A stretch of 62,997 bases of DNA, counting the filler, from Reclinomonas americana ATCC 50394 (lineage: Eukaryota): assembly GCA_048213135.1 (NCBI GenBank). It is 14 parts of 14 records of this genome, joined end to end, with 100 filler letters (N's around TTAATTAATTAA, not from the genome) between each part and the next. Parts side by side here need not be neighbours in the genome. Positions count along the whole stretch, not along the records: positions 12,906 to 18,781 come from AFZH01020210.1; positions 18,882 to 24,623 come from AFZH01020211.1; 12 more parts are not named here. One strand, 5' to 3'. Shown here piece by piece: positions 16,574 through 47,500 of this stretch (the first letter of the stretch is position 1; each line of letters opens with the position of its first letter). The notes beneath the pieces are model-generated. The model was given only the letters and a program-made list of their open reading frames with translations, did not search any database and was not told the origin of the DNA. A program made the position numbers and the translations under genes.

Positions 16574-17317
16574 ATGCCTCTCACCAACACACCCGCCCAG
16601 CACTCTCCACTCCTCGAGATCTGCGTCTTCTCCCTCGCCGCCGCTCACGCCGTTCTCTCGCGCGCACACGCACTTGTCACGCGACTTGAGTTGTGCGCAG
16701 GCGAGCCTTGCGACGGCGGCCTCTCGCCTCCGCTAGACACCTACGTGCGCCCACTCCTCGAGGCATACCCGCACATGCACTTTTCCGTCATGGTGCGCCC
16801 GCGCAAAGGCGACTTTGTGTACTCTCGCGAAGAGATCGATGCGGCAGTGGCGCAGGTGGAGGCACTGACAGGAGAAGAGCGCGTGGGAGTGGTGTTTGGT
16901 GCGTTGGATGCGCATGGGCGATTGGATGACGTGGCGTGTCGACGCGTCTGTGAGGCCGCAGTGAAGGCCGGTCTGCGGGATGTGACACTGCACAAGGCCT
17001 TTGATGCTGTCGAGGGAGAGGAGCCAGTGAGCACGCTGCGTGGTGCGGCTGACCTCGGCTTTCGGCGAGTGTTGACCTCGGGAGGGCGTGTGGGTCGCGC
17101 GGTGGACAACCTGGCAGTGCTGCGCGAGTTGGTGGCGGAGGGGCGCAGGGTGGGGGTGACGGTGATGCCGGGTGGTGGTGTGAGGGAGGACTGTGTGCGG
17201 CGGGTGGTGGAGGAGACGCGGTGTGTGGAGGTGCATAGTGCGGCGTTGGGTGATGGCGGCATGCCGAATGTGCTGTGTGTGGAGCGCATGGTGAGGGAGT
17301 TGTCTGAGCAGGGATGA
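16574..17317 (+). CDS. cutC: Copper homeostasis protein CutC (intronless, 247 aa)
   Basis: LEICVFS, RLELC..DGGLSP, VMVRPRKGDFVYS, GVVFGALD, TLHKAFD, RVLTSGG, MPGGGV and EVHS motifs. Confidence 0.95.
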   Translation: MPLTNTPAQHSPLLEICVFSLAAAHAVLSRAHALVTRLELCAGEPCDGGLSPPLDTYVRPLLEAYPHMHFSVMVRPRKGDFVYSREEIDAAVAQVEALTGEERVGVVFGALDAHGRLDDVACRRVCEAAVKAGLRDVTLHKAFDAVEGEEPVSTLRGAADLGFRRVLTSGGRVGRAVDNLAVLRELVAEGRRVGVTVMPGGGVREDCVRRVVEETRCVEVHSAALGDGGMPNVLCVERMVRELSEQG

Positions 17318-17339
17318 GTGAAAGAGGAGGGAAGTGCGA

Positions 17340-17715
17340 GGGGGAAGGAGAAGGCGGGAGGGAGGGAGGGAGGGAGGAAAATGGAGATGCAGCAGCGGGT
17401 GCACACCTGCTACGGCGACAATAACAACAACAACAACAACAGCAACGGAAGGAGGAAGAGGAGAAGGAGGAGGTGAAAGAGGAGCGGGAGGAGGAGGAGG
17501 AGGAGGAGGAGGAGGAGGAGGAGAAGGAGGAGAGGAGGAGGAGGAAGAGGAGGAGGAGGAGGAGGAAGATGACGAGGAGAAGAAGAAGAAGAAGAAGAAG
17601 GAAGAGGAAGAGGAAGAGGAGGAGAGGGAGAGAGAGGAGGAAGAGAATGAGAAGCAGAAGAACAAGACCAAGAACAAGACCAGGAAGAAGCAGAAGACGA
17701 AGACGAAGGAGAGAA
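17340..17715. repeat. GGA/GAA/CAA trinucleotide tracts, intergenic
   Basis: Direct reading of the simple repeats. Confidence 0.9.
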
Positions 17716-18135
17716 GGCAACGAAATGCTGCAACTGTGCAACTCGCACACACCGTGCACGATATGCGAATGCTTCACAAAACGCTGCACCGGGCTGTGCT
17801 GTGCTCCAATTGCCTGCTCGACCACAGAAATCGTCAAGCAAACACTGGTTGTGCAGTGCAGTTGCGGTGGTCTCCAGAATCCCTTGAGGAGGAAGGAGGG
17901 AGAGGAAGGAAAGCAAACAGCAAGAAAGAGGCATTTCGAGCGGGTGCAAACTCCGTTTACGTTGCAAGCTGAAGATTGAATGCTCTCTTTCCTTGCGACT
18001 TCCAACTCCATACTTGCACAAACACCATTCACCCTTCCCACTTTCTACAGGGCGAATACAACTGAATCGCCATGTCATCGGAAAAACAAAAAGGCAATTT
18101 CCTTTCTCAAAACACCTTCTCTCTCACACGCCACC

Positions 18136-18602
18136 ATGCGAGCCAACACTGCTCTCCTCCTCGCACTCTGCTGCATCGCCACTCTCGCACTGTGCTCCTC
18201 ACGCGCACAAGCAGCCATCGGAGGCGCAGGTAACACACACACACACTCTCTCTCTCATTGCGTCACTCTCTCACACTCTTTCACATACACACAGCTTGCG
18301 CAAACGATCGTGACTGCAATGGACCAATGGCCGCACCCAACAGTGGCATCTACAATGGACAGTGCAAGAGTTACCTCTTAAACACACACACGCACACACA
18401 CACACTCTCTTTCTCACACATGCTGTTACACAGATGGCTTCTGCCAGTGCTTTGCGGGCATCACTGGCGCCAACTGCGGTCTGTCTGTCTGTGTGAGAGT
18501 GTGTGAGAGTGTGTGTGCGTGTGAGGACTCACTCGTTTGTGTGTGTGTCTCTCACATAGGGTGCAACTCGAGTGTCTCGTGCAGTGGACGGGTGAGTTGC
18601 AC

Positions 18603-18635
<33 letters not shown>

Positions 18636-18916
18636 GCAGTGTGTGAGTGTGTGCTATGTGCTTTTGTATTTTTCCGAGGAGTCGCGAGGTGACGCGTTTT
18701 CCATTGCTGACAACATGGTCTTCGGAATTATTCTCTTTTTCTCTTTATTGTTTGTTAGGGCGTGTGCAATGGAAATGGATTNNNNNNNNNNNNNNNNNNN
18801 NNNNNNNNNNNNNNNNNNNNNNNNNTTAATTAATTAANNNNNNNNNNNNNNNNNNNNNNNNNNNNNNNNNNNNNNNNNNNNTCGCTCTCTACGCTCCACT
18901 CACTTCCTTCCCTCAC

Positions 18917-18962
<46 letters not shown>

Positions 18963-21900
18963 TTTGTGTTGTCTCCCACTCTGCTGAGTTTGCGAAAATA
19001 TGCGCATCTTTCGCGCTCTCCTTCTCTCGTTCACTCGAGGCGCTCTGTCTCCATCTCTCTCTTGGTCTGCTGCCTTCTCGTGTCCTTGCTCTCTGGCTTG
19101 TTCGATGGGCGAATGCTTTCACTGTCAAGATTTTTTCGTCATGTCCGGAGTCCGGTCTTTCTCTCACACACACTCCACTGCTATCCTTTTTGTGAGGGAT
19201 TCAGAGCTCCTGTTGGATATGATCATTCTCCTGAAGCCTGGGCTCATTTGTCTGAGGTTTTTCTTCTCTCTGTTTTTCCTGTATCTCCGCAAAACTGCCC
19301 AGCATAGCGTATTCTTCTTCTCTGTCGTGCTCCTCCCCTGTTCCTTGCCCCTTTTCCTTCCCCCTTTCCCCCTTCTCTTCCCCCTTCTCCTTCTCCCTTC
19401 CCCTTCTCCCTTACCCTTCTCCCTTCCCCTTCTCCCTTCTCCCTCTCCCTCCCCCTAACCCTTCCCCTTCTCCTACCCCCTCGTCCTCCCCCTCACCCTT
19501 CCCTCTTCACCTTCCCCCTCATCCCCCCTCCCTACAGACCTGCAACGGCAACGGCACCTGCTCCGCCGACGGCACCTGCCTCTGCAACTTTGGCTTCGCG
19601 GCTCCCAACTGCGCCGGCACGGCGCGCTCGCCGCTTGTCGAGGTTTGTCACGAAACCCCACTCTCTGCGCCCCACTTTGCGCCTCAAACCCACTCTCCTC
19701 TTGCACAGGCTCAGCAGCAGCTGGCGACCACCGGCATCTTCTTCAACAACTACTGGCGCGGATCGACGGCTGCACAGAGTTCCGTCTCCATCACTCTTTC
19801 CTGTCGTGTGTACTACGTTTACTCAAAACGCTTTCTTCGCGCAGTCTGCCTGTGGGGCCAGAAGCCCGACACCAGCGTCTGCACTCAGCGCGCCTTTAAT
19901 CCAACTGTGCGCGAGCCGTCGGTGCCCCTCTCGATTGCCGGCCTGCCTTCAATCTATGGTATGCGTCTGGCCATGGTGTGCGTTTTGCTGTCACCGCATT
20001 TCTCACTCTGTGCGCGCGCGCAGGACTCGGACTGACACTGGGCGATCCGTCGTTCTCGGACGAGAACATGGCCGAGGTGTTTGTCGAGTACACGACGGCG
20101 GCCAACGTCCGCATTGCGAGCGCTGTGGCGCCGGCACTGACCACGATTTGGACCGTCGGCAGTTGCGTCTGCGAGTGCACAAGAGATGGATTTTGCGCGG
20201 CTCACTTCGTGCCCCAGACACGTCTCTGCCGTCGGGTGTGTGGATGTACCTCTCCCACCTGAGCCAGACCACCGGCCAGTACAACTTTGATGGGTTGCCA
20301 GATGTGCCGCTCACCAACCCGGCGGACTTGCTCGGCATCTTCACGCCGGCGGAGCTCGTTGCGTCATCTCTATTTCCCCCATTCCATGGGAGACAGGTAG
20401 ACTTACGTTTTTCTGTTGCTGGTTTTTTGCAGGCTCTGGATCCGCGCCTCGCCTGGTGGGTGCACAGTGAGGCTTCCTTGTGCGCCTCGCTGTCATTTTC
20501 TTATCTTGTCGCGCAGGGTCCAGCAGCTGTTCGCCTCGCCCACGGTCATGGAGCAGCGCCTGTTCGACGTGCTCACGTTCGGTCAGACCGCCTTGCTCAC
20601 CTCACTGAAGGGCGTCAATGCCGCCACGCTTCCCTACCTCAGCTACCTCATGGTTTGTTCAGACGGGATTACTTCACAATTGTGACTCCTTTTCTCTCTC
20701 ACTCGAGAATCAATCTCGCAGACCGGCAGCACCACCTTCCAGACGCTTGCCGCCGACAATTCGCTGAAGCTGTTCTTCCTCGACCTCAGCTTCCTCAGCG
20801 GCATGCGCGCCGGCGTGCCGTCCGCGAACTACATTGCCGACCCGGTGGTGGTGTTTGGCCGCGATGCTGCCAACGTGAATGCGCCGTACATTCCCTACAT
20901 TATTCGCCTCAGCAGCACGTCCACCAACACACCGACCTTCTACGAGCGTGGCGTGGCGACGCCGTCGGCGATGCAGCTGGCCAGCGGACTGGTGATCTCC
21001 GGCGCCGCGTACCACCTCACGCACAACCTGCATCTGCAGCGTGAGCACTCGTTCCTCGCCGCCGTGCGTCTGTCCCTCAACAACAGTGCGTGCTGCCTGA
21101 CGTCTCTTCTCTTCTCTCCTCGAGATGCCTCGGCTCACCTGTTCCTCACAGCGTCTTCGAGCGTCCTGTCTGCCTCGCACCCGCTCCGCCGCCTGCTCAA
21201 CCAGCACGTCCGCTGGTCGACCGAGGTTTGCAGCAGGATGAGGCATGGCATGATTGTATCCACGTTGGCTCACTCCTTGTGCGTCGCAGCTGCTCGATGC
21301 GACAGTGACGCTGGGAAGCACGTCGTCTGTGGTGCCGCGCGGTGAGTTCGTCTTCCTGGTGATGTCGCACTTGTTGATTCTCACCTCGATTGTAGTGGGC
21401 CGGTGGTTCGATGGCACGCCGCTGGCGTTCATCGGTTGGGAGGTGAGAAAGTGTCTCCTGTGCTCTCTTTACCTCGCTTGACTGCTGAACTCCCGGAACC
21501 TCGATTTCCACAGGCCTTTGCGCAGCTGAACCCCAGCAGCGCCCTCTTCCGCCCGTACGTGTGGAATGCGGCGTTTGGACTCAACGCGGCCGACTTTACT
21601 GGTTTGCGAGTGCTTGTTTCTTTTTATTTTTTGCTGTGTGCATCTCTTCTTCGCTGATATTCTGCCTTTCCGCGCAGCAACGACCGCGTGGGACCGCTAC
21701 CCGGCCATGCAGGTGCGCGCCGCAGACTTGCGTTCTACAGGCGATGCTCTCGTTCTGACACGCAACGTGCTTTCCACAGGGTGCTCTCGGCGCGTGGGAC
21801 ATTGCCGCTGCGTACGTGCAGGTATGCTTCTCGTCGGCATGCAGAGAGTGTCTGCGTGTGCAGTGCGATAATCCGTACTTTGTAACAGGCTTCGCTCGGA

Positions 21901-22656
21901 CCTCTGTACCCCACTGACGCCAGTGTGACCGGCGACGCTGGACTGCAAGGTTTTGTTACCGTTATCTGCTCACTCTGTTCCCAACTGCGCTGACACGGCG
22001 TTTTGCAGCCCTCGCCGCTCTCCTCACCGATCCGAACCAGGGCAACCTGAAGGTTTCGTCGCCTCGTCCGCGCGCATACTTTTTCACAAAACCTGTTCTC
22101 ATCACTTTTTTTCACTGCAGGCCCAGTTCGCCACGCCTGGCGTCATTGCCACCCGCGCCGAGCTGTTTGACTTTGCCACGCAAGTCATCTGGAGCATGCT
22201 GGTGCACAACTACCAGTCGATCAATGCGCTGGCCATGCCCACTCTGGTGCTCTCGCCGTTCCTGCGTGCCAACTCCGCCGCCATCACCGACGCCCCGCCG
22301 TCGCCGTCGGGCACCTACTCGACCACCGATTTGTTGGTCTTCTTCACCTCTGTGCGGTGAGTGTCTGCAGCGTTCGCCCTTTGTCCCCTCGCCGTCTCTC
22401 TCTCACCACTACGACACACGCACACAGTGAGTTGGCGCGCACCAACTTTGCCGTGCGCCTGGTGCCCAACATTCCGATCGGACGTCCCTTCTTCGTCAAC
22501 GCCGACCTCGACAGCTCCGTTCCCAACCTCACCGCCCTCAATGCTCTGCGCGCCAGCGTGCGCGATCTGTTGCGTCGTCTGGCTCCCGCGTCGTACGCGG
22601 CGCAGCTGTCCGACGCCTACCTCAACTCGGTGTTCGCGACCAACGCCGAGTGGTAA
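18136..22656 (+). CDS. Secreted protein with tenascin-type EGF repeats fused to a divergent lipoxygenase domain
   Basis: Signal peptide MRANTALLLALCCIATLALCSSRAQA. EGF repeats such as CNGNGTCSADGTCLCNFGFAAPNC. LOX motifs FFLDLSFL, HLTHNLHLQREH...SHPLRRLLNQH, YP, LYPTDASVTGDAGLQA, IATRAELFDFATQVIWSMLVHNYQS. Ends TNAEW*. Confidence 0.82.
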
Positions 22657-38500: not shown

Positions 38501-41500
38501 GGTGATTCGCCAGTCGACAGTGGAATTCGTGGTGCCGGTAATTGTGGCACTGACGGTGAACATCACGTCCACACGCACGTTGCCATCCAGGGCGCGGCTC
38601 TCTACTTGCTCCTGTCACGACCACACACACACGCACAATGGTAAGCCACTATTAGGGCTCACCATACACATGGGGATCGCTCCGCAACAAGTGCAAGCGC
38701 AATGTTGACCGGCGCCCCATACACAAGAACAGTGGAGCTCGAGACAGAACGCGCACCTCGCGAGGACACAACTGCAATATTGTACCTGCGTGCGAGAGTG
38801 AGAGTGAGTGAGAGAGCAAAGCGGCAGCGGGAGTGGCGGGAGTCGACAAACCTGCCAGGCAAAATCGCACTCGCCGGCACAGACACAGAAGACGTGGTGG
38901 AGGTCGACAACAGGTCCGGACATGTACCAGTAACTGCGGAGCACTGCCATCGGTACGACATGATCATGTTCTATCGTCTCTTAAGATGAGCCAGCTGAAG
39001 ATGCGATTGTGAGCAGTAAAAACACTCCATTGTGGCAGACCTGCAACGCCACCGCGTCCTTGTCGCGATCCATCACAGCTAGAGATAGCACGACTGGCAG
39101 GGTCGATGCACCCATACTCCCACCTGCACATTGAAAATGAGACGTTCACGAAACGCAACTCAAAGTGGCCAAGCACGAACAACAAAAATACACAGACCAC
39201 CAGTGAGCTGCGCCGTCAATGGATTCGTCACTGTGCAACAGTCCCGCTCAGTTACAGTAACGCCTTCACCAGCATGAAATCGCGGCACGTACCGTACACG
39301 ACCACCTTCCAGCCGCCATAATTGACGGCCTCGTTCGTGTCAAACGCCAGGGTGATGGTGGAAACTATGTATGCAGCACAACCATCAGTGAATACCACAC
39401 TCGTGAAATCTCTCTTTCTCGCAGTCACATGCACACCTCCAGTGACCTCCGCTAGCGTGTCGGCCGCAACAGCTGGTAGCGACGTGCCTGACCACTGGCG
39501 CAGCAGCGAGTCCGCAGAGACAGTCGAGCCACGGTACACGGACAGCACGTCGCTGCCAGCTTCAGTGCTCAGCTGCAGCAAGCGAATCACAATGCTCGAG
39601 TAGGCCGACGACAGAGACGACACCTGACACCGCAGCATCAGCGAGTGACGGGGAGGCGGTCTTACTGTAATGACAAACAACTGACCGAGATGGACCATCG
39701 ACACGCGAGTGATTCAGTGTAGATTGAACCGACGAGGCGATCCACCACGACCTGATCAACACCTGGAGCGACCGTCATCGTGGTGGGCGTGGAAGGACAC
39801 GAGCTAGGCAGCAGGGCTACGCAAACATCAGTGCACGTCAGTATACCCCCAGCGATGCACGGAAAAATAAACATTGACGTACTGATGGTGGCCGGAGTGC
39901 TCCACGGACCCGTCGACGCACTGGTTTGTACGCGTGCCACCAGCGAAATCGAGTTGGTCTGCTGCGACAAGTTGACCACGGTGCATGAGACGGCATTGGT
40001 ACTGGACCAGGGGCAGGGTGACGGACGTGTCTCCAATGGCTGCATCAAGTTGGTGCTGAGTGCAACCACGAGCTGCGCGGCCGTGGCACCATTCGGTGCA
40101 GTCGCCGTCGGCGTCAGCGACAATACCACGGATCGACTGCCGACCTGGCCCACCGTGATGTGGACCTTGATAGCCGTCGGTGTATTGACTGCGAGGAGTG
40201 GCAAATATGAGTAACATCGCTGGTCACAAGCGGCAAGCACAGTGACAAAGTACCGGTCAGAGGCGCAGACCAAGCACCAACATAGGAGGCTGTCTCCAAT
40301 CGAACGACAATCTGATACGATAGCGCCTCGTTGAGTCCAATGGCTGTGCACGCAATCGTTCCCGCCGCATCCGTCCACGCGCACGATGCCGGCGACGTCG
40401 TGTACAGGTTGCGCGGAGCGGCGGTGTCAGCCAGCTGCACGCGGCCCGATAGACCATCGGCTGTCGACCACGGTCGGGACGGTGTGACGGTGAGAGTGAC
40501 GCGGTTGTATTCGACAGTGGTGGCGACGGCGGTCGCGGTGGCGGTGAGCAATGTGCGCACTTGTGCAGACGCTGGACCACGAGGTCCATAGCCGAGATCG
40601 CTCTGCGCGCACGCGGCAAAGACATACGTAGTTCCTGGCGCCAGGCCCTGCACGGTGCAGACGACGGGGGCGACGCCAGCCAGCTCCCACACACACGGCG
40701 AAGGCGCTGTGGTGAACGTGAATTGCCCCGTGGCCGAATCCACAATCGCGAACCGTGGCGTCGCTCCGTCGGCCGAGGTGGCCGCCCGTGCCGGCGTCAA
40801 TGACAGGACGGCGGTGGTCGTGTCCACGGCACCCAATGATATGGTGACCACAAGGTCCAACGCAGCTGGTACGGAAAATGCACACAGTTGTGGTTGGCTC
40901 ACGAACAAGTGTAACAATCAAGACAAACGAAACTGATTACGCGGACAGTCGTCGAGCCGACCTGATTCAGTCGTGGCGTGTACTCGCTGGGCGCCCAGCA
41001 CACTGTATACACCAGGTTGCTGTCGAGTACCGCCAGATTGGTTGCGACAAACGTAGAAGCGTTGCTGACGACAGACATGGGCACGGAGGTGCCGGCGACT
41101 GCGTATGTCGGACAAGACGTGCCCGGGTGCAACCACGCAGCAATCGGAACCGAGAAGAACGAGCCTGACACAGTCAGCGTGAGGCCAGTGACCCCACTGC
41201 GTAGCACTGTCGGAGTGAACGTGCTGGCGGAGGTGCCTGCGGGGAAAACAACATACGTGAGAGGACACTACAAGCGCGCAGTCAGATTGGTCATCAGGAA
41301 TACCGCACGCACCGAGCAGCAGCATGCCGATCGACTCGTATGGACCCGCAGCCGTCCATCGCATGCACATGCGGTACGAGCCTCCAGAGGTAGAAACACC
41401 TGTCAGCACACTGAATAACATTTGCGACGTGCTCTGCACAGTGATGGATGCCACACTGGCAGTGGCCACGGGCGTTGGCGATCCGTCGCAGGAGTATGAT

Positions 41501-44500
41501 GCAGTGATGAGGGCCGCTGCAGTGTCGCCCGACACATCGACAAAGCCGGCGCCGACCACAGTGACGCTGGTGGGTGTGGCACTCAGCGGTAGCATATTCG
41601 GCGTCATGTAGATGACGGAACCTGGCGTGCGACGGGGCAATGTTGGTGACAAAATCATCATTCAGCGGCACATCAAATTGAAGGAGATCACTCGCACCTC
41701 CACTCGAGGATGCAGCAAAGATGGCCGACGACGTCGAACTGGTGAGCAGCAGCGTCCGATTGTTCCCGAGCGACATGTTGGAGATGGTTGACGATGCTAC
41801 CGTCGTAAGTGCGCCAATGCCACCTGCGCAGCCAAATCCCCAACAATCAATCCATTGTTACATCCATCTCTTCCCTCCAGTGAGCACAAGACGGGGATGA
41901 CACACCGTGGTGAGCGAGCAGCCGAATTGAGCCCTGTGGGAGCACAATAGAGCGGATCAATGGGAGTGCAAAAAGCAAGTGGCTGCATCAGGAGATGAGC
42001 ACGAAACGGCGTTCACAAAGTACAGATTGCCACCAATGTCGGGGCCTGCAATTGCGCTGAGGTTGGACAGCGACACACCACTCGCGTATGTGGTGACAAA
42101 GCCAGCTGCGACATGCACACACACGCCAGTGAGCTACGACGGCATGGAGAAAGTGTGTCACGCACGATCCAACAACGAAACAGTCCACCGATACAGCACG
42201 AAGGCTAGAATTGCCGCGATCGGCAACATACGCCACCTCGTCACGTATCGCAACACCCACAACATTGCTGAATTTTGCGACACTGGGAAACAAGTCAACA
42301 TTGCCTCCGACAAAAGGCGGCGATGCCGGTGCTTTGTTGGTCACGGCGCCTGTTGTTGGATTGATCTCACGAATTGCCAGACCCGACTGCAGCAGCTACG
42401 TGGTCAGCAACAAACTCCTTGACGAATCAAACGACGGAAAGTAACACGCACCTGATCGACAACCATTACGGAAGTCGCGCTCTGGTAAAAGAGGTGCGTG
42501 GGTGTGTTCAGCACATTCGTTGTGCCATCGCCGCACACCGTGCTGACAGCACTGGTGGACACTCGTCGAATACGGTGATTGCCGGCATCGGCTACCAACA
42601 CGTTGCCGCTGCCGTCCACTGCCAGGCCACGCGGCCCGGACAGGAGGGCCGCTGCCAGCGTGCCGTCCAGGAATCCGGCCACACCGGTGCCAACATAGTC
42701 GACAACCTCTCCTGTACCGACCAAGGTGAGCAGTTATTCGTGGATACACATCACGGTCGCTCGCATTCACACACCATCGCGGTACATCTTGCGCAATGCA
42801 TGTCGATCTGACTCGGCCACGACCAACTCTCCCGACAGCAGCTGAACGATGCCTTGCAGCGCGCCGAAAACGGCAGCAGATCCCAGTCGCCCATTGGCGT
42901 ACCCACTCGACGCGCCACCGCCCAGCAAGCTGGCCGCCGACGCACCCATGACAGTGAAGTTGCCAACCTCGATATACGCACTGCCGGCACTCGTCCGCAT
43001 GCACATACTGTACGTGCCGACAGCGGTTGCACTCAGATCCAAGGCCGCCGAAATGTAAATTGTGTTGGCGAGGCGCACAGTGGCAATTGTCATTGCAGTG
43101 GACACTGTTCCACACCCACCACTACCGTAGCCAATAGCGCCTGCGATTCCGTTCACATCGGGCAGACCAACACCATAGATGCGAAATGATACGGGCGCAA
43201 TTGGTGGAACGTAGGAGGGCCTTACAACCGTGGCGCTCACTAGCGGGCAGCTTATTTGTTGAGAAGGTGCTGTGTGACGACGACGATGTAATCAAGAATT
43301 ATTGACGCAACTAATGTATACGGCGGCGACTTGAACCCGAGCGTACGAAGTACGCCACCGCGCGCACAGCTTGTACGCTCCCGGTGCTACGCTGGTGGCA
43401 TCCATCACCAGCGACAGCATGGTGGACGACACGGATGAGACGCTCACAGTGACCGAGGCGGGTGCCTCGCATGAACCCGCAGCCACCACCATGGGCGTAC
43501 TGTCGCCTGCCACGGTGTCCAGATTGCAGCCAGTCATCGTGAAAGCCTGTGCGCTAGCCGCCGCAAACAAGGTGCGAGAAACAACGGTGACAGAGCCGGA
43601 GATGGCCAACTTGCGGATACGCTGATTGCCCTGCGCGCGCGTCATATTTCAGAAAACAGTGCCATCGAGCTTGAACACTGCCGTACGGTGGCGGACTGAC
43701 CGTGTCTAGGATCACCGAGTCATCAAAGTACATCGAAACGCCCGTGATGGAGCCAAACATAACGTCGAGACCACCGCCGTCGGCGAACCCCGCCGCCCCA
43801 GTCGACCCGGCAAGGGTAGACACGTATGCTGCAGAGTGCGCCATGAGAAAAGAGAAAAAGGGCAGGAACAAGAAATAACCATACGGGAGCCATCTTTGAC
43901 TCACAGTTGCCCAACCAGACCACGCGCAACAGTTGCGAGTGCGCTGTTATCAAGCCATTGGGCACACTTGAGCTGAGACCGAGACCATACAGCGGACCGA
44001 ATGTGCTGGACGTGCCGCTGCCGTTGGCGGTGCCAGTCACGCCCACACTTCCGGCAACCGTCTCCACCAGACCTGCGGTGATCGCGAGATGAGATCAGTG
44101 AAAGAAAGCGGGCTGGCAGTCTTGGTCGACCCGACCTGAGCCAAGATCCACGCGTCGTATCAAAAAATTGCCCGAGTCGGCCACCAACAGTTTGTTGTTG
44201 GCGCTATCGAGGGCCAGGCCGCGGGGACTGCTGAATCGAGCAGCCGAGCCAGCAGCATCAGCGTAGCCGCTGCTGCCGTCGGTGCTACCAACGAGTACCG
44301 TCACCGTTCCTGTCGACGATTATGCATGTGTACGTGTAAGTGAGTGGATGACATTAATAGGGAGGAAATTGAGTGCGACACTGACCTGTGCTAGTGTCCA
44401 CGAGGCGAACCGCGTGATTGCCCTGTTGTGGAGTGAGGTCAATCAACAGCAAAACGCAGGTACGATGGCAAGCGAGGGTAGCAAAACTGTGTCGGCCACG

Positions 44501-47500
44501 TAGAGACTGTTCGAGTTGTTGGCGGAGCTTGCGACGAGATACGTGGGACCCTGGAAGCGTGCACTGATGCCCGTAGTCGCGTCGGCCGTGGGAGCGCCAG
44601 CTACCGCAGTTGGAGAACCGACAAAGGTGGAAACCGCGTTGCTGGAAAACGAGAACCGACGCAAACGGTGGCCCTCCTGTGGTCGCCACGTGAGAATGCA
44701 CGTGACAATGAAGACCACAAGAATGAACGCACCTCCTCGCCGATGAACAGCAGCGATCGAGCGACATCCAGCCATAGGCCCGACGGTGCCCGAAAGGTTG
44801 CCGCTGTTGCGAGTCCATCTACGTCGCCAGGCGTGCCCGCAGTTCCCAGATACGTGGTCACGGCGCCGGAGAGCGACACCAGCAGAACTCGATGGTTTGT
44901 CTAGGTTTTTTTCATCGTACAGCGCGTGAGAAAGCTGACAGAGGCACACCAACGGTGACAGAAAAAGCAGCACCTTGTCCGACACTAACATGTCTCCTGT
45001 AGCGAGAGTGACGGCGCTCATCATTCCATTGCTGTACTGCGCAGCCGTGGGCAGCGAGCACACCGTGGCCTTGACTGCACGCGATTTCCAGGTGAGAGGT
45101 GGAGAAAACAGCGAGAGAGACAGACATCGAGCTCGTGTGAAGCAAGCGTGCACACCGATGCTCAGAAGCGCAACAGGTCCGTACAGACCCGTCGTGCCAA
45201 ATCTGGCACACACCGCATACTCGCCGACGGTGGCGGAAGCGGCCAGAACACGGAAAATAAGTGACCACGACGCAGAAGTATCCTGCAGAGCAAAGTCGAG
45301 GCCTGTGCCCGCCAGCAGTGTCTGGCTGGTACACGAAGCCGTGTCGGCAGCCACGGCAAACATGGCTGGATCGTCGAGACGCGGCACAAGGTTTGCTCCA
45401 CTGACGGTGATAACGTAGCCGTCGACTTGCGGAAGCACGGTTGGCGTTGTGGAAACGGTGACCGCGGCTGCAGCACTGATGTCACAAACAGAAGATTGCA
45501 ATCATGATCGGAGTGTGCAAGACACTCACCGACGTAGAAGGATCCCAGATTTTCATAACTGAATTGGCTGCCGTACCAAGCTGCGCACAATTGATACTCT
45601 GCAAAGGATACACATGCATACACACACAGAGCGTCAGAAAGACTTCATCACGCCGGTGCGTGAGGCATCGGAGTCGCAACTGCCGGTGCTGAGTGAGGGA
45701 GAGGCGTTGATTTGCAGCACCATTTGCGTCGACTGCACTGTGCCCGACACGGCAACAGTGATGCCCGCCGTCGCAGTCGTGTAATTGGAACAGTCACCGC
45801 GGATTGCCAGGGCGGCTGGTGTCTGCAGCTGTGTGCCAGTTACCGTGACGAGAGAGTTGGGCTGCGGCCAGATGGCTGGAGGGTCTAGAAAGCGAGCCGA
45901 GCCTGTGCACAGAAGAAGTTGGTGAGTGGACAGAAAGAGAGCGCGCGCAAAAATGAGAGAGTGAAAACGCGAACGCACTTCCTTTGGAGATCAAACGAAT
46001 GGTGCCCTGGTCGGTGCGAGAGTGCGGTCAGAATAAAAACACAGAAATCCACAGAGAGGGCAGGAAAAAACGCACAGCATCGTTCACAGCGAATACGCGA
46101 GTCGACAACCGAGACATGGACATGGGACTCGTGAGGTACGTTACTATTAACAGGACAACACGGGTAAGTGCTGGTTCAATCGTTCGCAACAGAAAACACG
46201 CACACACTTACCGTCGGTGAGCTGATTGAATTCCCCAACACCGCTCAGTGACAATAATCGCAGGACCTTGGTGGTGCGCTGTAGTTAAAAGAGAGAGCAC
46301 ACGCTGAGCGAGAACAATAGCAGCGAGGAAAGTGGGACCACGCGACACGCACCTGCAGCACCAGCACGTCACTGCCATGCAGAGATAGAAGCATGGCATC
46401 AGTAAGGGCGGCAACAGCCGAGTCACCCGCGTCGGTCTGCGACGTGTGTGTGACGATGAGCACGGCAACATGCAAGCTACCATACACTACTTGCAACCGA
46501 AAACGCAACAAAAGTGGCGGCACCGGATACGCTGGCCGAGTTCGTGCCGGCCACAGTCGTGACCATGCCTGAAGCACGACGATGAGGACAAAACGAGCGA
46601 GAGAAAAGATGGGAGATAGAGGAGATATTGGAGAGGTACCAGAAAGAAAACTGACGCGCCGCAGCAGGGGTGGCGTTTGCATGACGACCAGCATGGCCTT
46701 GGGCGAAGACACGCCCAGCCGATCGACAAATGCCAATGAAGAAATGTCGCGAAATGTTGCAACAGCCAGTCGCCCATCCGCATCACCCGAGACCCCCGGC
46801 ACGCCGGTCAGTGTTTTCATGGTGTCTGTGACGTACAGAGACACAGTAAATACAGCCACTTCCTTTCATGCATTCGCAAGGAACACAAAAGTAAGCTGCA
46901 CCAGAATCAACCGACGTGTATCGGATCCGATCAACCTGCGCACACCTCGACAGTGAGACGCAATACGGCACAACGCGCAAACACATGCACGTGTAAGGCC
47001 TCGCAACTCCACTGTCGACCACAAACAGCTGATCGGCGTAGTAGGGTGAGCTGCCGAGATACACCCACTGTGGGGAGGTGAGGGTCGATCCGTTGCCCCC
47101 ACTCTGATCTGCCGATCCAGCCGCATTACTCCGACCGGCAAGTGTGGAGACAATTTCTGCAACAACAGGCCAAGGATTGGTTGCGATGAAGCACATAGAG
47201 AGCCAAGCAACGCGGGAGACACGCACTGGTGTCGAGATTGATGCTGCGGATGGTGTGGTTGCCCGTGTCGGCCACCAACAACTTGCGCTTCGAATCGTGA
47301 ACGCGCAGCCCACTTGGGGTATTGAATCGAGCCTCAGGCACGCACTTGCCGTCGACCGCTCCACTGGAGTTGACCACACCGGCAAACACAGAAACGTAGC
47401 CAAATGTCGAAATGGTGCGCACGGCATGTCCCTCGGTGAAATACATCTCTCCGGTCTGCACCATCCGAATGAGCGTCACCTAATACACACGCCAGTTCGT

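What the first reader, a model, noticed from the sequence alone, without database searches (positions are those of the whole stretch)
18136..22656. Secreted EGF-repeat-lipoxygenase fusion
Seen: a signal peptide, at least 3 tenascin-like EGF modules (more may lie in the gap), then a lipoxygenase-like domain with HLQREH, HPLRRLLNQH, YPTDASVTGDAGLQA and VIWSMLVH. No PLAT domain was recognised. Known: animal and plant LOXs are mostly cytosolic with an N-terminal PLAT domain, and described fusions involve catalase-like allene oxide synthase. I know of no EGF-LOX architecture. Inference: an extracellular or surface-tethered oxylipin-generating enzyme in a protist.
Basis: partly seen in the sequence, partly recalled or inferred. 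Interest (0 to 1): 0.8.

Follow-up and report, generated by a model that had tools for sequence, protein, structure and literature searches.

The report
Secreted EGF-stalked lipoxygenase-like protein
An intron-rich eukaryotic gene encodes a probably secreted protein in which EGF modules are followed by a very divergent, bacterial-type lipoxygenase domain whose metal-binding site is only partly canonical, so the architecture looks new but enzyme activity is unproven.

Summary
Window 18136-22656 (+) gives one coherent gene model: 22 exons, all GT-AG, 18 of 20 introns 54-81 nt, exon GC3 84% against intron GC 53%. It encodes a signal-peptide-like N-terminus and one complete and two gap-truncated EGF modules; one exon passes Pfam EGF_Teneurin and EGF_2 narrowly. 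About 110 unassigned residues and a ~510-residue C-terminal domain follow.

Single exons hit nothing in Pfam, PDB, 1.84 billion representative proteins or the ESM Atlas. The spliced product does match lipoxygenase profiles built here: 66.3 bits, against at most 2.8 bits for 201 shuffled or reversed controls, and hhalign 98% over residues 149-631. It scores far better against bacterial PLAT-less LOXs than against plant LOXs.

The H-x4-H metal ligands are kept. The third and fourth ligands are ambiguous, and the protein does not end at the canonical C-terminal ligand position. An assembly linker lies inside the gene. No RNA data and no orthologues were found. I found no EGF-LOX architecture in print. 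Verdict: a new variant of a known kind, of moderate interest.

The parts
18136..18229 (+). Exon 1: start codon and signal-peptide-like segment (predicted cleavage after about residue 26).
   Evidence: Read directly. Spliced translation. Hydropathy peak 2.85. Pfam finds nothing, as expected for a signal peptide.
18295..18478 (+). Exons 2 and 3 (18295-18369, 18434-18478): EGF module 1, with all six Cys.
   Evidence: GT-AG introns of 65 and 64 nt. The Cys pattern C-x5-C-x15-C-x4-C-x-C-x8-C was read from the output. Each exon is too short for Pfam: one search found nothing on exon 2, and exon 3 (14 aa) could not be submitted.
18560..18781 (+). Exons 4 and 5 (18560-18591, 18759-18781): EGF module 2, cut off by the end of the contig.
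   Evidence: Three Cys are seen before the linker.
18782..18881 (.). Assembly linker (44 N, TTAATTAATTAA, 44 N). An unknown amount of sequence is missing, possibly including more EGF modules.
   Evidence: 13 such linkers in the window, 0 expected by chance.
18882..19537 (+). Post-gap part of the interrupted intron. It is CT-rich and no exon was recognised in it.
   Evidence: Three-frame reading. GC 53.6%, like the introns.
19538..19642 (+). EGF module exon (five Cys; the first Cys of the module lies in the missing sequence).
   Evidence: Pfam EGF_Teneurin 3e-5 (24.4 bits, cut-off 24.3) and EGF_2 1.7e-4 (22.3 bits, cut-off 22.1). GC3 0.91.
19709..20161 (+). Three exons (19709-19778, 19845-19958, 20024-20161): about 110 residues of unassigned region with two Cys, between the EGF and LOX parts.
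   Evidence: GT-AG introns of 66, 66 and 65 nt. GC3 0.76-0.83. No Pfam hit on the pieces. No match to a 5-plant PLAT HMM.
20218..22656 (+). Thirteen exons encoding the lipoxygenase-like catalytic domain (post-gap residues about 149-659) and the stop codon. Exons: 20218-20362 (alternative model: 20218-20396 plus 20433-20455), 20517-20652, 20722-21085, 21152-21225, 21290-21341, 21396-21442, 21514-21601, 21678-21712, 21780-21821, 21889-21949, 22009-22052, 22121-22356, 22428-22656.
   Evidence: Gene model. LOX HMMs give 64.1 and 66.3 bits. hhalign 98%. The HMM alignment runs without gaps across five consecutive exon junctions (domain 2).
21031..21048 (+). H-x4-H motif (His340 and His345 of the post-gap model), aligned to the two invariant His of the first metal-ligand helix.
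22205..22225 (+). Region of the third and fourth metal ligands: His534-x3-Ser538 overlapping Tyr536-x3-Asn540.
   Evidence: hhalign and MAFFT L-INS-i both put Tyr536 and Asn540 on the reference H-x3-N. 2 of 36 reference LOXs carry H-x3-S. This exon alone aligns only up to just before His534.
22591..22656 (+). C-terminal segment. In the global alignment Ala654 falls on the reference C-terminal residue; five more residues and TAA follow.
   Evidence: Global hhalign. 34 of 36 reference LOXs have Ser at position -4, and here the candidate Ser is at -9. The last exon alone gives no significant profile match (E 0.65).

Best explanation
This is one gene for a secreted, soluble, modular protein. It has a cleavable signal peptide and a short stalk of at least three teneurin/tenascin-type EGF modules. 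About 110 residues of unassigned sequence follow. The C-terminal 'head' is a PLAT-less, bacterial-type lipoxygenase-family catalytic domain that has diverged very far (about 20-23% identity to reference LOXs).

Shown: the gene model is internally consistent, one EGF module passes Pfam, and the head is homologous to lipoxygenases.

Inferred: the protein leaves the cell, the EGF modules act as a disulfide-bonded spacer or binding stalk, and the head still binds a metal through His340 and His345 and accommodates a fatty-acyl chain.

The remaining ligand positions are remodelled: His534/Ser538 or Tyr536/Asn540, and a chain that runs five residues past the usual C-terminal carboxylate ligand. I therefore think the head most likely no longer works as a canonical iron lipoxygenase. 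More likely it works as an extracellular lipid-binding module, or as an oxygenase with altered metal coordination. I put textbook hydroperoxide-forming activity at about one in three.
For: Gene model: 22 exons, every intron GT-AG. Of 20 introns, 18 are 54-81 nt; the others are 154 and 167 nt. Post-gap exons have GC 64.7% and GC3 84.2%, against intron GC 52.9%. Each of the 17 post-gap exons has GC3 of 0.60-0.92.

EGF: Pfam EGF_Teneurin and EGF_2 pass their cut-offs on exon 19538-19642. Module 1 has a full six-Cys pattern.

LOX homology: an 8-sequence Planctomycetota LOX HMM gives 64.1 bits, colinear over HMM positions 251-532 and protein residues 250-551. A 36-sequence HMM gives 66.3 bits. 201 shuffled or reversed controls reach at most 2.8 bits. 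hhalign gives 98.4% in global mode and 98.1% in local mode, over query 149-631.

Bacterial type: a 31-sequence bacterial HMM scores 63.7 bits and a 5-plant HMM 16.8 bits.

Conserved sites: 14 of the 30 aligned columns that are at least 90% conserved are kept, including His334, His340, His345, His367-Pro368 and His376.

Extracellular signs: hydrophobic N-terminus; no transmembrane-like stretch later (maximum 19-residue hydropathy 1.35); zero Cys in residues 149-659, against a median of 4 in the last 510 residues of the 36 reference LOXs, of which 1 has none.

Non-canonical metal site.
Against: No transcript evidence; no RNA run was listed.

The signal peptide and the first two EGF modules sit on a different contig from the rest, joined only by an assembly linker.

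Pfam's own Lipoxygenase model did not hit any single exon, nor a 169-residue read-through piece. PDB sequences, 1.84 billion representative proteins, the ESM Atlas and metagenome contigs also gave nothing for single exons.

No structure could be predicted for the spliced product, so 'LOX fold' rests on profile homology alone.

The statements about the third and fourth ligands and the C-terminus rest on low-confidence ends of alignments. Exon 22121-22356 alone aligns only up to just before His534. The last exon alone has no significant match.

Retention of both H-x4-H histidines after such divergence argues for a still-functional metal site, which fits an active enzyme as well as my reading.

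The EGF Pfam scores pass their cut-offs by only 0.1-0.2 bits.
Confidence: 0.5

Rival explanations
1. One reading: a catalytically competent secreted lipoxygenase on an EGF stalk that makes fatty-acid hydroperoxides outside the cell. It might act on free PUFA or on the membrane lipids of prey, host or neighbours, as the secreted Pseudomonas aeruginosa LOX does.
For: Both H-x4-H histidines and several other invariant residues survive at about 20% overall identity. That suggests selection on the metal site. A His (534) and an Asn (540) lie in the second ligand helix. H-x3-S occurs in 2 of 36 reference LOXs. The identity of the C-terminal residue varies among the references (I, V, T, A, M). Secreted LOXs exist: PA-LOX is called secreted in the abstract of PMC5764228 as seen in the listing, and some brown-alga prokaryote-like LOXs have predicted signal peptides (PMC5712309, passages).
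Against: 16 of the 30 aligned conserved columns are lost. Two aligners place Tyr, not His, on the third ligand. The chain runs five residues past the aligned C-terminal ligand position, whereas 34 of 36 references end with Ser at -4. From memory only, not from any call: C-terminal extensions or tags inactivate characterised LOXs.
Confidence: 0.3
2. The model merges what are really two units. Either the pre-gap contig (signal peptide, EGF modules 1-2) belongs to a different gene or locus, or the EGF exon at 19538-19642 ends a separate upstream gene and the LOX gene starts at an internal Met.
For: The linker at 18782-18881 is one of 13 joining 14 contigs, and I have no independent proof of their order. 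Residues 36-148 have no homologue to anchor the splicing. Frame 2 is open from 19502 to 20032 even without splicing. There is no RNA evidence.
Against: Both contig ends carry the same kind of EGF module on the same strand. The pre-gap contig ends inside an exon, and the post-gap EGF exon begins at an acceptor site and lacks its first Cys. Each side therefore needs what the other offers. The four introns between the EGF exon and the first LOX-homologous exon are GT-AG, 56-66 nt and phase-consistent, and their exons have GC3 0.76-0.85. Even if the pre-gap part were foreign, an EGF module would still sit directly upstream of the LOX domain.
Confidence: 0.12
3. The LOX resemblance is a chance collection of motifs and the C-terminal domain is an unrelated orphan domain.
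For: No hit for any single exon in Pfam, PDB, 1.84 billion representative proteins or the ESM Atlas. No pairwise similarity to six Bacteroidota LOX-like ORFs.
Against: 66.3 bits against at most 2.8 bits for 201 controls. The alignment is colinear over about 480 residues, and hhalign gives 98%.
Confidence: 0.03

Closest known systems
Bacterial PLAT-less lipoxygenases (Pfam PF00305 alone), such as the Planctomycetota ORFs fetched here and the secreted Pseudomonas aeruginosa PA-LOX
   Same: The catalytic domain is homologous, with the best profile scores against bacterial sequences (63.7 bits against 16.8 for plants). No PLAT domain was recognised. PA-LOX is also exported (abstract of PMC5764228, seen in the listing).
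   Different: This gene is eukaryotic, with 20 or more spliceosomal introns, and carries EGF modules upstream. Only 14 of 30 aligned conserved columns are kept. The second ligand helix and the C-terminus are non-canonical.
Prokaryote-like lipoxygenases of brown algae (PMC5712309; passages read)
   Same: These are eukaryotic LOXs that group with prokaryotic ones. Some have predicted signal peptides. Two Saccharina sequences have a ligand-region His replaced by Tyr.
   Different: That paper mentions no EGF modules (0 occurrences of 'EGF'). I did not compare sequences with them.
Natural LOX fusion proteins: catalase-related allene oxide synthase-LOX of corals and cyanobacteria (recalled, not from a call)
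   Same: A LOX domain fused to another domain in one polypeptide.
   Different: In those fusions the partner is a second enzyme acting on the LOX product and the proteins are intracellular. Here the partner is an extracellular EGF array.
Secreted fungal manganese lipoxygenases (recalled, not from a call)
   Same: Extracellular LOX-family enzymes with signal peptides and a modified metal centre.
   Different: They keep the canonical ligand set and a terminal carboxylate ligand, and they have no EGF modules. No sequence comparison was made here.
Protist secreted EGF-array proteins with a foreign globular head (earlier notes e1-609694 and e1-609764, Naegleria)
   Same: The same design logic: signal peptide, then EGF modules, then a head domain borrowed from another family.
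   Different: The heads there are fibrinogen-like or ice-binding-like, not LOX, and the organism is different. These are unchecked AI notes.

Membership tests
Lipoxygenase catalytic domain (Pfam PF00305) | Significant profile similarity along the catalytic domain | tested here: met
   HMMs built here from LOXs that Pfam PF00305 itself identified and their relatives give 64.1 and 66.3 bits. hhalign gives 98% over residues 149-631. Controls reach at most 2.8 bits. Pfam's own model found nothing on single exons, and the spliced product could not be submitted to it.
Lipoxygenase catalytic domain (Pfam PF00305) | First ligand helix: two His spaced H-x4-H | tested here: met
   His340 and His345 fall on columns that are invariant in 36 of 36 references.
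Lipoxygenase catalytic domain (Pfam PF00305) | Second ligand helix: His followed four residues later by Asn, His or Ser | tested here: inconclusive
   34 of 36 references have H-x3-N and 2 of 36 have H-x3-S. The query offers His534-x3-Ser538 or Tyr536-x3-Asn540. hhalign and L-INS-i choose the Tyr/Asn register. This exon alone aligns only up to just before His534.
Lipoxygenase catalytic domain (Pfam PF00305) | Chain ends at the residue whose carboxylate is the fifth ligand (references end S-x-x-x-COOH) | tested here: not met
   34 of 36 references have Ser at -4. The query's last ten residues do not fit this. In the global alignment the reference terminus falls on Ala654 and five residues follow. 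Caveat: the last exon alone gives no significant alignment.
Lipoxygenase catalytic domain (Pfam PF00305) | Lipoxygenase three-dimensional fold | not testable with these tools
The spliced product could not be submitted.
Lipoxygenase catalytic domain (Pfam PF00305) | PUFA dioxygenase activity with bound Fe or Mn | not testable with these tools
   Needs recombinant protein.
EGF-like domain, teneurin/tenascin type (Pfam PF23106, PF07974) | Profile match over the curated cut-off | tested here: met
   Exon 19538-19642: EGF_Teneurin 24.4 bits (cut-off 24.3) and EGF_2 22.3 bits (cut-off 22.1), so marginal. The other modules are split over exons too short to test.
EGF-like domain, teneurin/tenascin type (Pfam PF23106, PF07974) | Six-cysteine pattern ending C-x-C-x8-C | tested here: met
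   Module 1 has all six Cys. The post-gap module has five, with C-x-C-x8-C. Module 2 is cut by the gap. Read from the outputs.
PLAT/LH2 domain (Pfam PF01477) | Beta-sandwich domain N-terminal to the LOX catalytic domain | tested here: inconclusive
   No Pfam hit on the three exons of residues 36-143, but they are only 23-46 residues each. A 5-plant PLAT HMM finds nothing in the spliced model. The unassigned region is about 110 residues, which is PLAT-sized.
Secretory signal peptide | n-, h- and c-regions with small residues at -3 and -1 | tested here: inconclusive
   The pattern is present by eye and by hydropathy. No dedicated predictor was available. An in-frame upstream ATG at 17980 exists but has a poorer context than gccaccATG at 18136.

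The most novel reading that the evidence does not exclude
A eukaryotic microbe displays an active lipoxygenase-family oxygenase outside the cell on an EGF stalk. Its metal centre uses a tyrosine or a shifted histidine and lacks the universal C-terminal carboxylate ligand. That would be a new coordination chemistry for the family and a new extracellular route to oxidised lipids acting on prey, host or neighbouring cells.
Probability: 0.15. Interest if true: 0.8.

Novelty: new variant of a known kind. Interest (0 to 1): 0.5.

Why it matters
Lipoxygenases are mostly studied as PLAT-bearing intracellular enzymes of plants and animals, or as stand-alone bacterial enzymes.

An EGF-stalked, secreted, bacterial-type LOX homologue in a eukaryote would add a new architecture to the family. 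It would show that this head domain, like others, has been recruited into protist extracellular modular proteins.

The partly remodelled metal site makes it a natural test of which ligands the fold really needs. If the protein is active, it defines a new coordination variant. If it is inactive, it is a clear example of a lipoxygenase-fold pseudoenzyme reused as a binding module.

The case also shows that intron-fragmented, fast-evolving domains escape exon-by-exon searches entirely.

Tried and rejected
- **Single-exon searches, all blank.** Pfam on 13 exon or read-through pieces gave only the EGF hit. PDB sequence search of two exons gave only a chance proteinase K match at E 0.6. The search for homologous proteins with lengths 'longer' found none. 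The all-against-1.84-billion phmmer search returned one low-complexity repeat protein, P0001, judged spurious. The ESM Atlas gave no usable hit. In metagenome contigs, 187 pattern matches included no relative. Earlier-findings look-ups by place and by sequence gave nothing.
- **RNA evidence.** No RNA holder was listed.
- **Whole genome.** None is held for this window.
- **Lineage.** A search with the neighbouring 633-aa TPR protein returned only generic bacterial and eukaryotic TPR proteins. Rfam and tRNA scans of the window were empty. A literature search for the linker sequence was uninformative.
- **Bacteroidota LOX-like ORFs.** L008-L012 and L014 gave no pairwise similarity to the query. 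They were used only as extra targets.
- **Paralogues.** tblastn found none in the window.
- **Per-exon profile comparisons.** These are weak: E 1.1e-4, 0.0037 and 0.65. Only the spliced product gives a decisive score.
- **Downstream exon restoring a canonical C-terminus.** I considered a GTAAAT donor overlapping the stop codon. The candidate acceptors about 68 nt downstream give an immediate stop or three extra residues, so I rejected it (read).
- **Exon 20218-20362.** Two models (A: one 154-nt intron; B: an extra 23-nt micro-exon with 36- and 61-nt introns) score the same against the LOX HMM, 64.1 and 64.0 bits. This is left open.
- **Structure.** No prediction or fold search was run, because the spliced protein is not an accepted input.
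Full report
**What is in the sequence**

The window is eukaryotic DNA with GC about 55%. It is built from 14 contigs joined by 13 identical linkers of 44 N, TTAATTAATTAA and 44 N. One linker, at 18782-18881, lies inside the reported feature.

Reading the three forward frames and choosing GT-AG introns, I built a gene model in scripts.

- Before the gap there are five exons: 18136-18229, 18295-18369, 18434-18478, 18560-18591 and 18759-18781. The last is cut by the end of the contig.
- After the gap there are 17 exons, from 19538 to the TAA at 22654-22656.
- All 20 introns are GT-AG with CAG or TAG acceptors. Eighteen are 54-81 nt and the other two are 154 and 167 nt.
- Post-gap exons have GC 64.7% and GC3 84.2%, against 52.9% GC in the introns. 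Every one of the 17 exons has GC3 between 0.60 and 0.92.
- One junction is ambiguous (model A or B for 20218-20362). It does not affect the conclusions.

**N-terminal part**

The start codon sits in the context gccaccATG. The first 26 residues have one Arg, a 15-residue hydrophobic core and an A-x-A site, with a hydropathy peak of 2.85. No signal-peptide predictor was available, so this is a reading and not a test.

EGF module 1 is complete, with six Cys ending C-x-C-x8-C. Module 2 is cut by the gap. The first post-gap exon (19538-19642) is an EGF module that lacks only its first Cys. It passes Pfam EGF_Teneurin (24.4 bits, cut-off 24.3) and EGF_2 (22.3 bits, cut-off 22.1), so only narrowly.

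The pre-gap contig ends inside an exon. The post-gap EGF exon starts at an acceptor site and needs an upstream Cys. Both parts are on the same strand. The two contigs therefore fit as one gene, but nothing independent proves they are adjacent.

**The C-terminal domain: is it a lipoxygenase?**

Exon by exon, the answer looked negative.

- Pfam found no hit on any LOX-region exon, nor on a 169-residue read-through piece holding two of the quoted motifs.
- PDB sequences gave nothing.
- 5.8 billion clustered proteins gave nothing.
- 1.84 billion representatives read in full by HMMER gave only a spurious repeat protein.
- The ESM Atlas and the metagenome contigs gave nothing.

I then collected true lipoxygenases. 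Pfam PF00305 searched over 351 Planctomycetota genomes gave 8 matches in 6 genomes, at 145-248 bits. A profile of six of them, aligned with four of the window's exon pieces as extra rows, retrieved 28 further LOXs including five plant enzymes with PLAT domains.

HMMs built from these sequences in the Python box were run against the spliced 659-residue post-gap product.

- The 8-sequence HMM gave 64.1 bits, colinear over HMM 251-532 and protein 250-551.
- The 36-sequence HMM gave 66.3 bits.
- 201 shuffled or reversed versions of the query reached at most 2.8 bits.
- hhalign gave 98.4% probability in global mode and 98.1% in local mode, with 439 aligned columns over query 149-631.

The second HMMER domain runs without a gap across five consecutive predicted exon junctions (residues 450-530). 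This independently supports the splicing model there.

Homology to the lipoxygenase catalytic domain is therefore established at profile level. The fold itself could not be checked, because the structure tool does not accept spliced products.

**What kind of LOX**

The query scores 63.7 bits against a bacteria-only HMM of 31 sequences and 16.8 bits against the five plant LOXs. The set sizes are unequal, so this is indicative only.

The LOX homology starts at about residue 149. That is where the shortest bacterial LOXs begin.

Residues 36-148 have no assignment. They are PLAT-sized, but neither Pfam on their short exons nor a small plant PLAT HMM matched.

**State of the catalytic site**

The five canonical ligands (two His, a third His, an Asn/His/Ser, and the C-terminal carboxylate) are textbook knowledge that I recall. 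The columns themselves come from my alignments.

Of the 52 columns that are at least 90% conserved in the 36 references, 30 were aligned to the query. Of those 30, 14 are kept, including His334, His340, His345, His367-Pro368 and His376. Thus the H-x4-H pair is intact.

In the second ligand helix, 34 of 36 references read H-x3-N and 2 of 36 read H-x3-S. The query has His534-x3-Ser538 overlapping Tyr536-x3-Asn540. Both hhalign and MAFFT L-INS-i place Tyr536 and Asn540 on the reference His and Asn. The spacing to two downstream prolines agrees with that register.

This part of the alignment has low confidence. The exon alone aligns only up to just before His534 (E 0.0037).

At the C-terminus, 34 of 36 references end S-x-x-x-COOH. 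The query does not. In the global alignment the reference terminus falls on Ala654 and five residues follow. The last exon alone gives no significant match, so the exact register is uncertain. What is certain is that the canonical ending is absent. I found no alternative downstream exon that would restore it (read).

**Extracellular signs**

After the signal peptide there is no transmembrane-like stretch; the maximum 19-residue hydropathy is 1.35.

Residues 149-659 contain no cysteine at all. The reference LOXs have a median of 4 in their last 510 residues, and 1 of 36 has none.

The only two Cys outside the EGF modules lie 11 residues apart in the unassigned region.

**Interpretation**

The functional claim is weaker. 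Keeping both H-x4-H histidines at about 20% identity suggests that a metal site is still under selection. However, more than half of the aligned conserved positions are lost, the second ligand helix is shifted, and the C-terminal ligand position is not terminal.

My estimates:
- 0.5 for a secreted EGF-stalked LOX-fold head with a remodelled metal centre, acting as a lipid binder or a non-canonical oxygenase.
- 0.3 for a fully competent extracellular lipoxygenase.
- 0.12 for a merged or mis-joined gene model.
- 0.03 for chance resemblance.

**Comparison with what is known**

- Secreted LOXs exist. PA-LOX is described as secreted in the abstract of PMC5764228, seen in the listing.
- Eukaryotic 'prokaryote-like' LOXs occur in brown algae. 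Some have predicted signal peptides and two have a His-to-Tyr replacement (PMC5712309, passages).
- LOX fusions with catalase-related allene oxide synthase, and secreted fungal Mn-LOXs, are recalled and not from a call.
- Two full-text searches combining lipoxygenase with EGF terms returned no paper describing an EGF-LOX protein. A third search, on LOX evolution in protists, added nothing. This covers only the held library. InterPro-style architecture queries were not possible.
- Earlier notes of this scan describe Naegleria EGF arrays carrying other foreign heads (e1-609694, e1-609764) and a bacterial LOX-like clade with odd metal-site residues (e1-3571595). These are unchecked leads that fit the general pattern.

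**Limits**

- There is no RNA evidence.
- No whole genome is held.
- No orthologue or paralogue was found.
- The lineage is undetermined.
- An unknown amount of sequence is missing in the gap.

Noticed in passing
window 2800, 4747, 7911, 12850, 18826, 24668, 29676, 31631, 33429, 37582, 47768, 49894, 59318: Thirteen identical linkers (44 N, TTAATTAATTAA, 44 N) divide the window into 14 contigs of roughly 1.7-10 kb. Adjacency across any of them is an assembly claim, not sequence evidence.
   Followed up: partly
window 9140-11044 (-) and 12858-15065 (-): Two long intron-free ORFs encode near-identical N-terminal halves followed by TPR repeats. They are tandem paralogues or duplicated contigs. The second runs through a run of roughly 60 glutamines into a linker. 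A database search with the first gave only generic TPR or kinase-TPR proteins, with 34% as the top identity.
   Followed up: partly
window 16574-17317 (+): An intron-free 247-aa ORF is related to bacterial proteins at 32-40% identity in 7 genome loci. By my recollection of the motifs it looks like a CutC-type copper homeostasis protein. No family scan was run.
   Followed up: partly
window 17330-17760: A purine/pyrimidine-skewed low-complexity tract lies between the upstream gene and the LOX gene. It reads as poly-E/K on one strand and poly-S/P/L on the other. CT-rich tracts recur in intergenic and intron DNA across the window.
   Followed up: no
L017 and L021 (Planctomycetota genomes G477 and G550): Two bacterial lipoxygenase matches lie in open frames of 1405 and 1415 residues, about twice the usual length. 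Large N-terminal fusions to LOX therefore exist in bacteria. The extra part was not analysed.
   Followed up: no
L008-L012 (Bacteroidota genomes): ORFs of 726-757 residues match Pfam Lipoxygenase only over profile positions about 278-408, at 25-44 bits. They match my Planctomycetota LOX HMM at 38-53 bits.
   Followed up: partly
window 39662-45501 (-): Several long T/S/A/V-rich ORFs on the minus strand look like pieces of one large repetitive surface-type protein.
   Followed up: no
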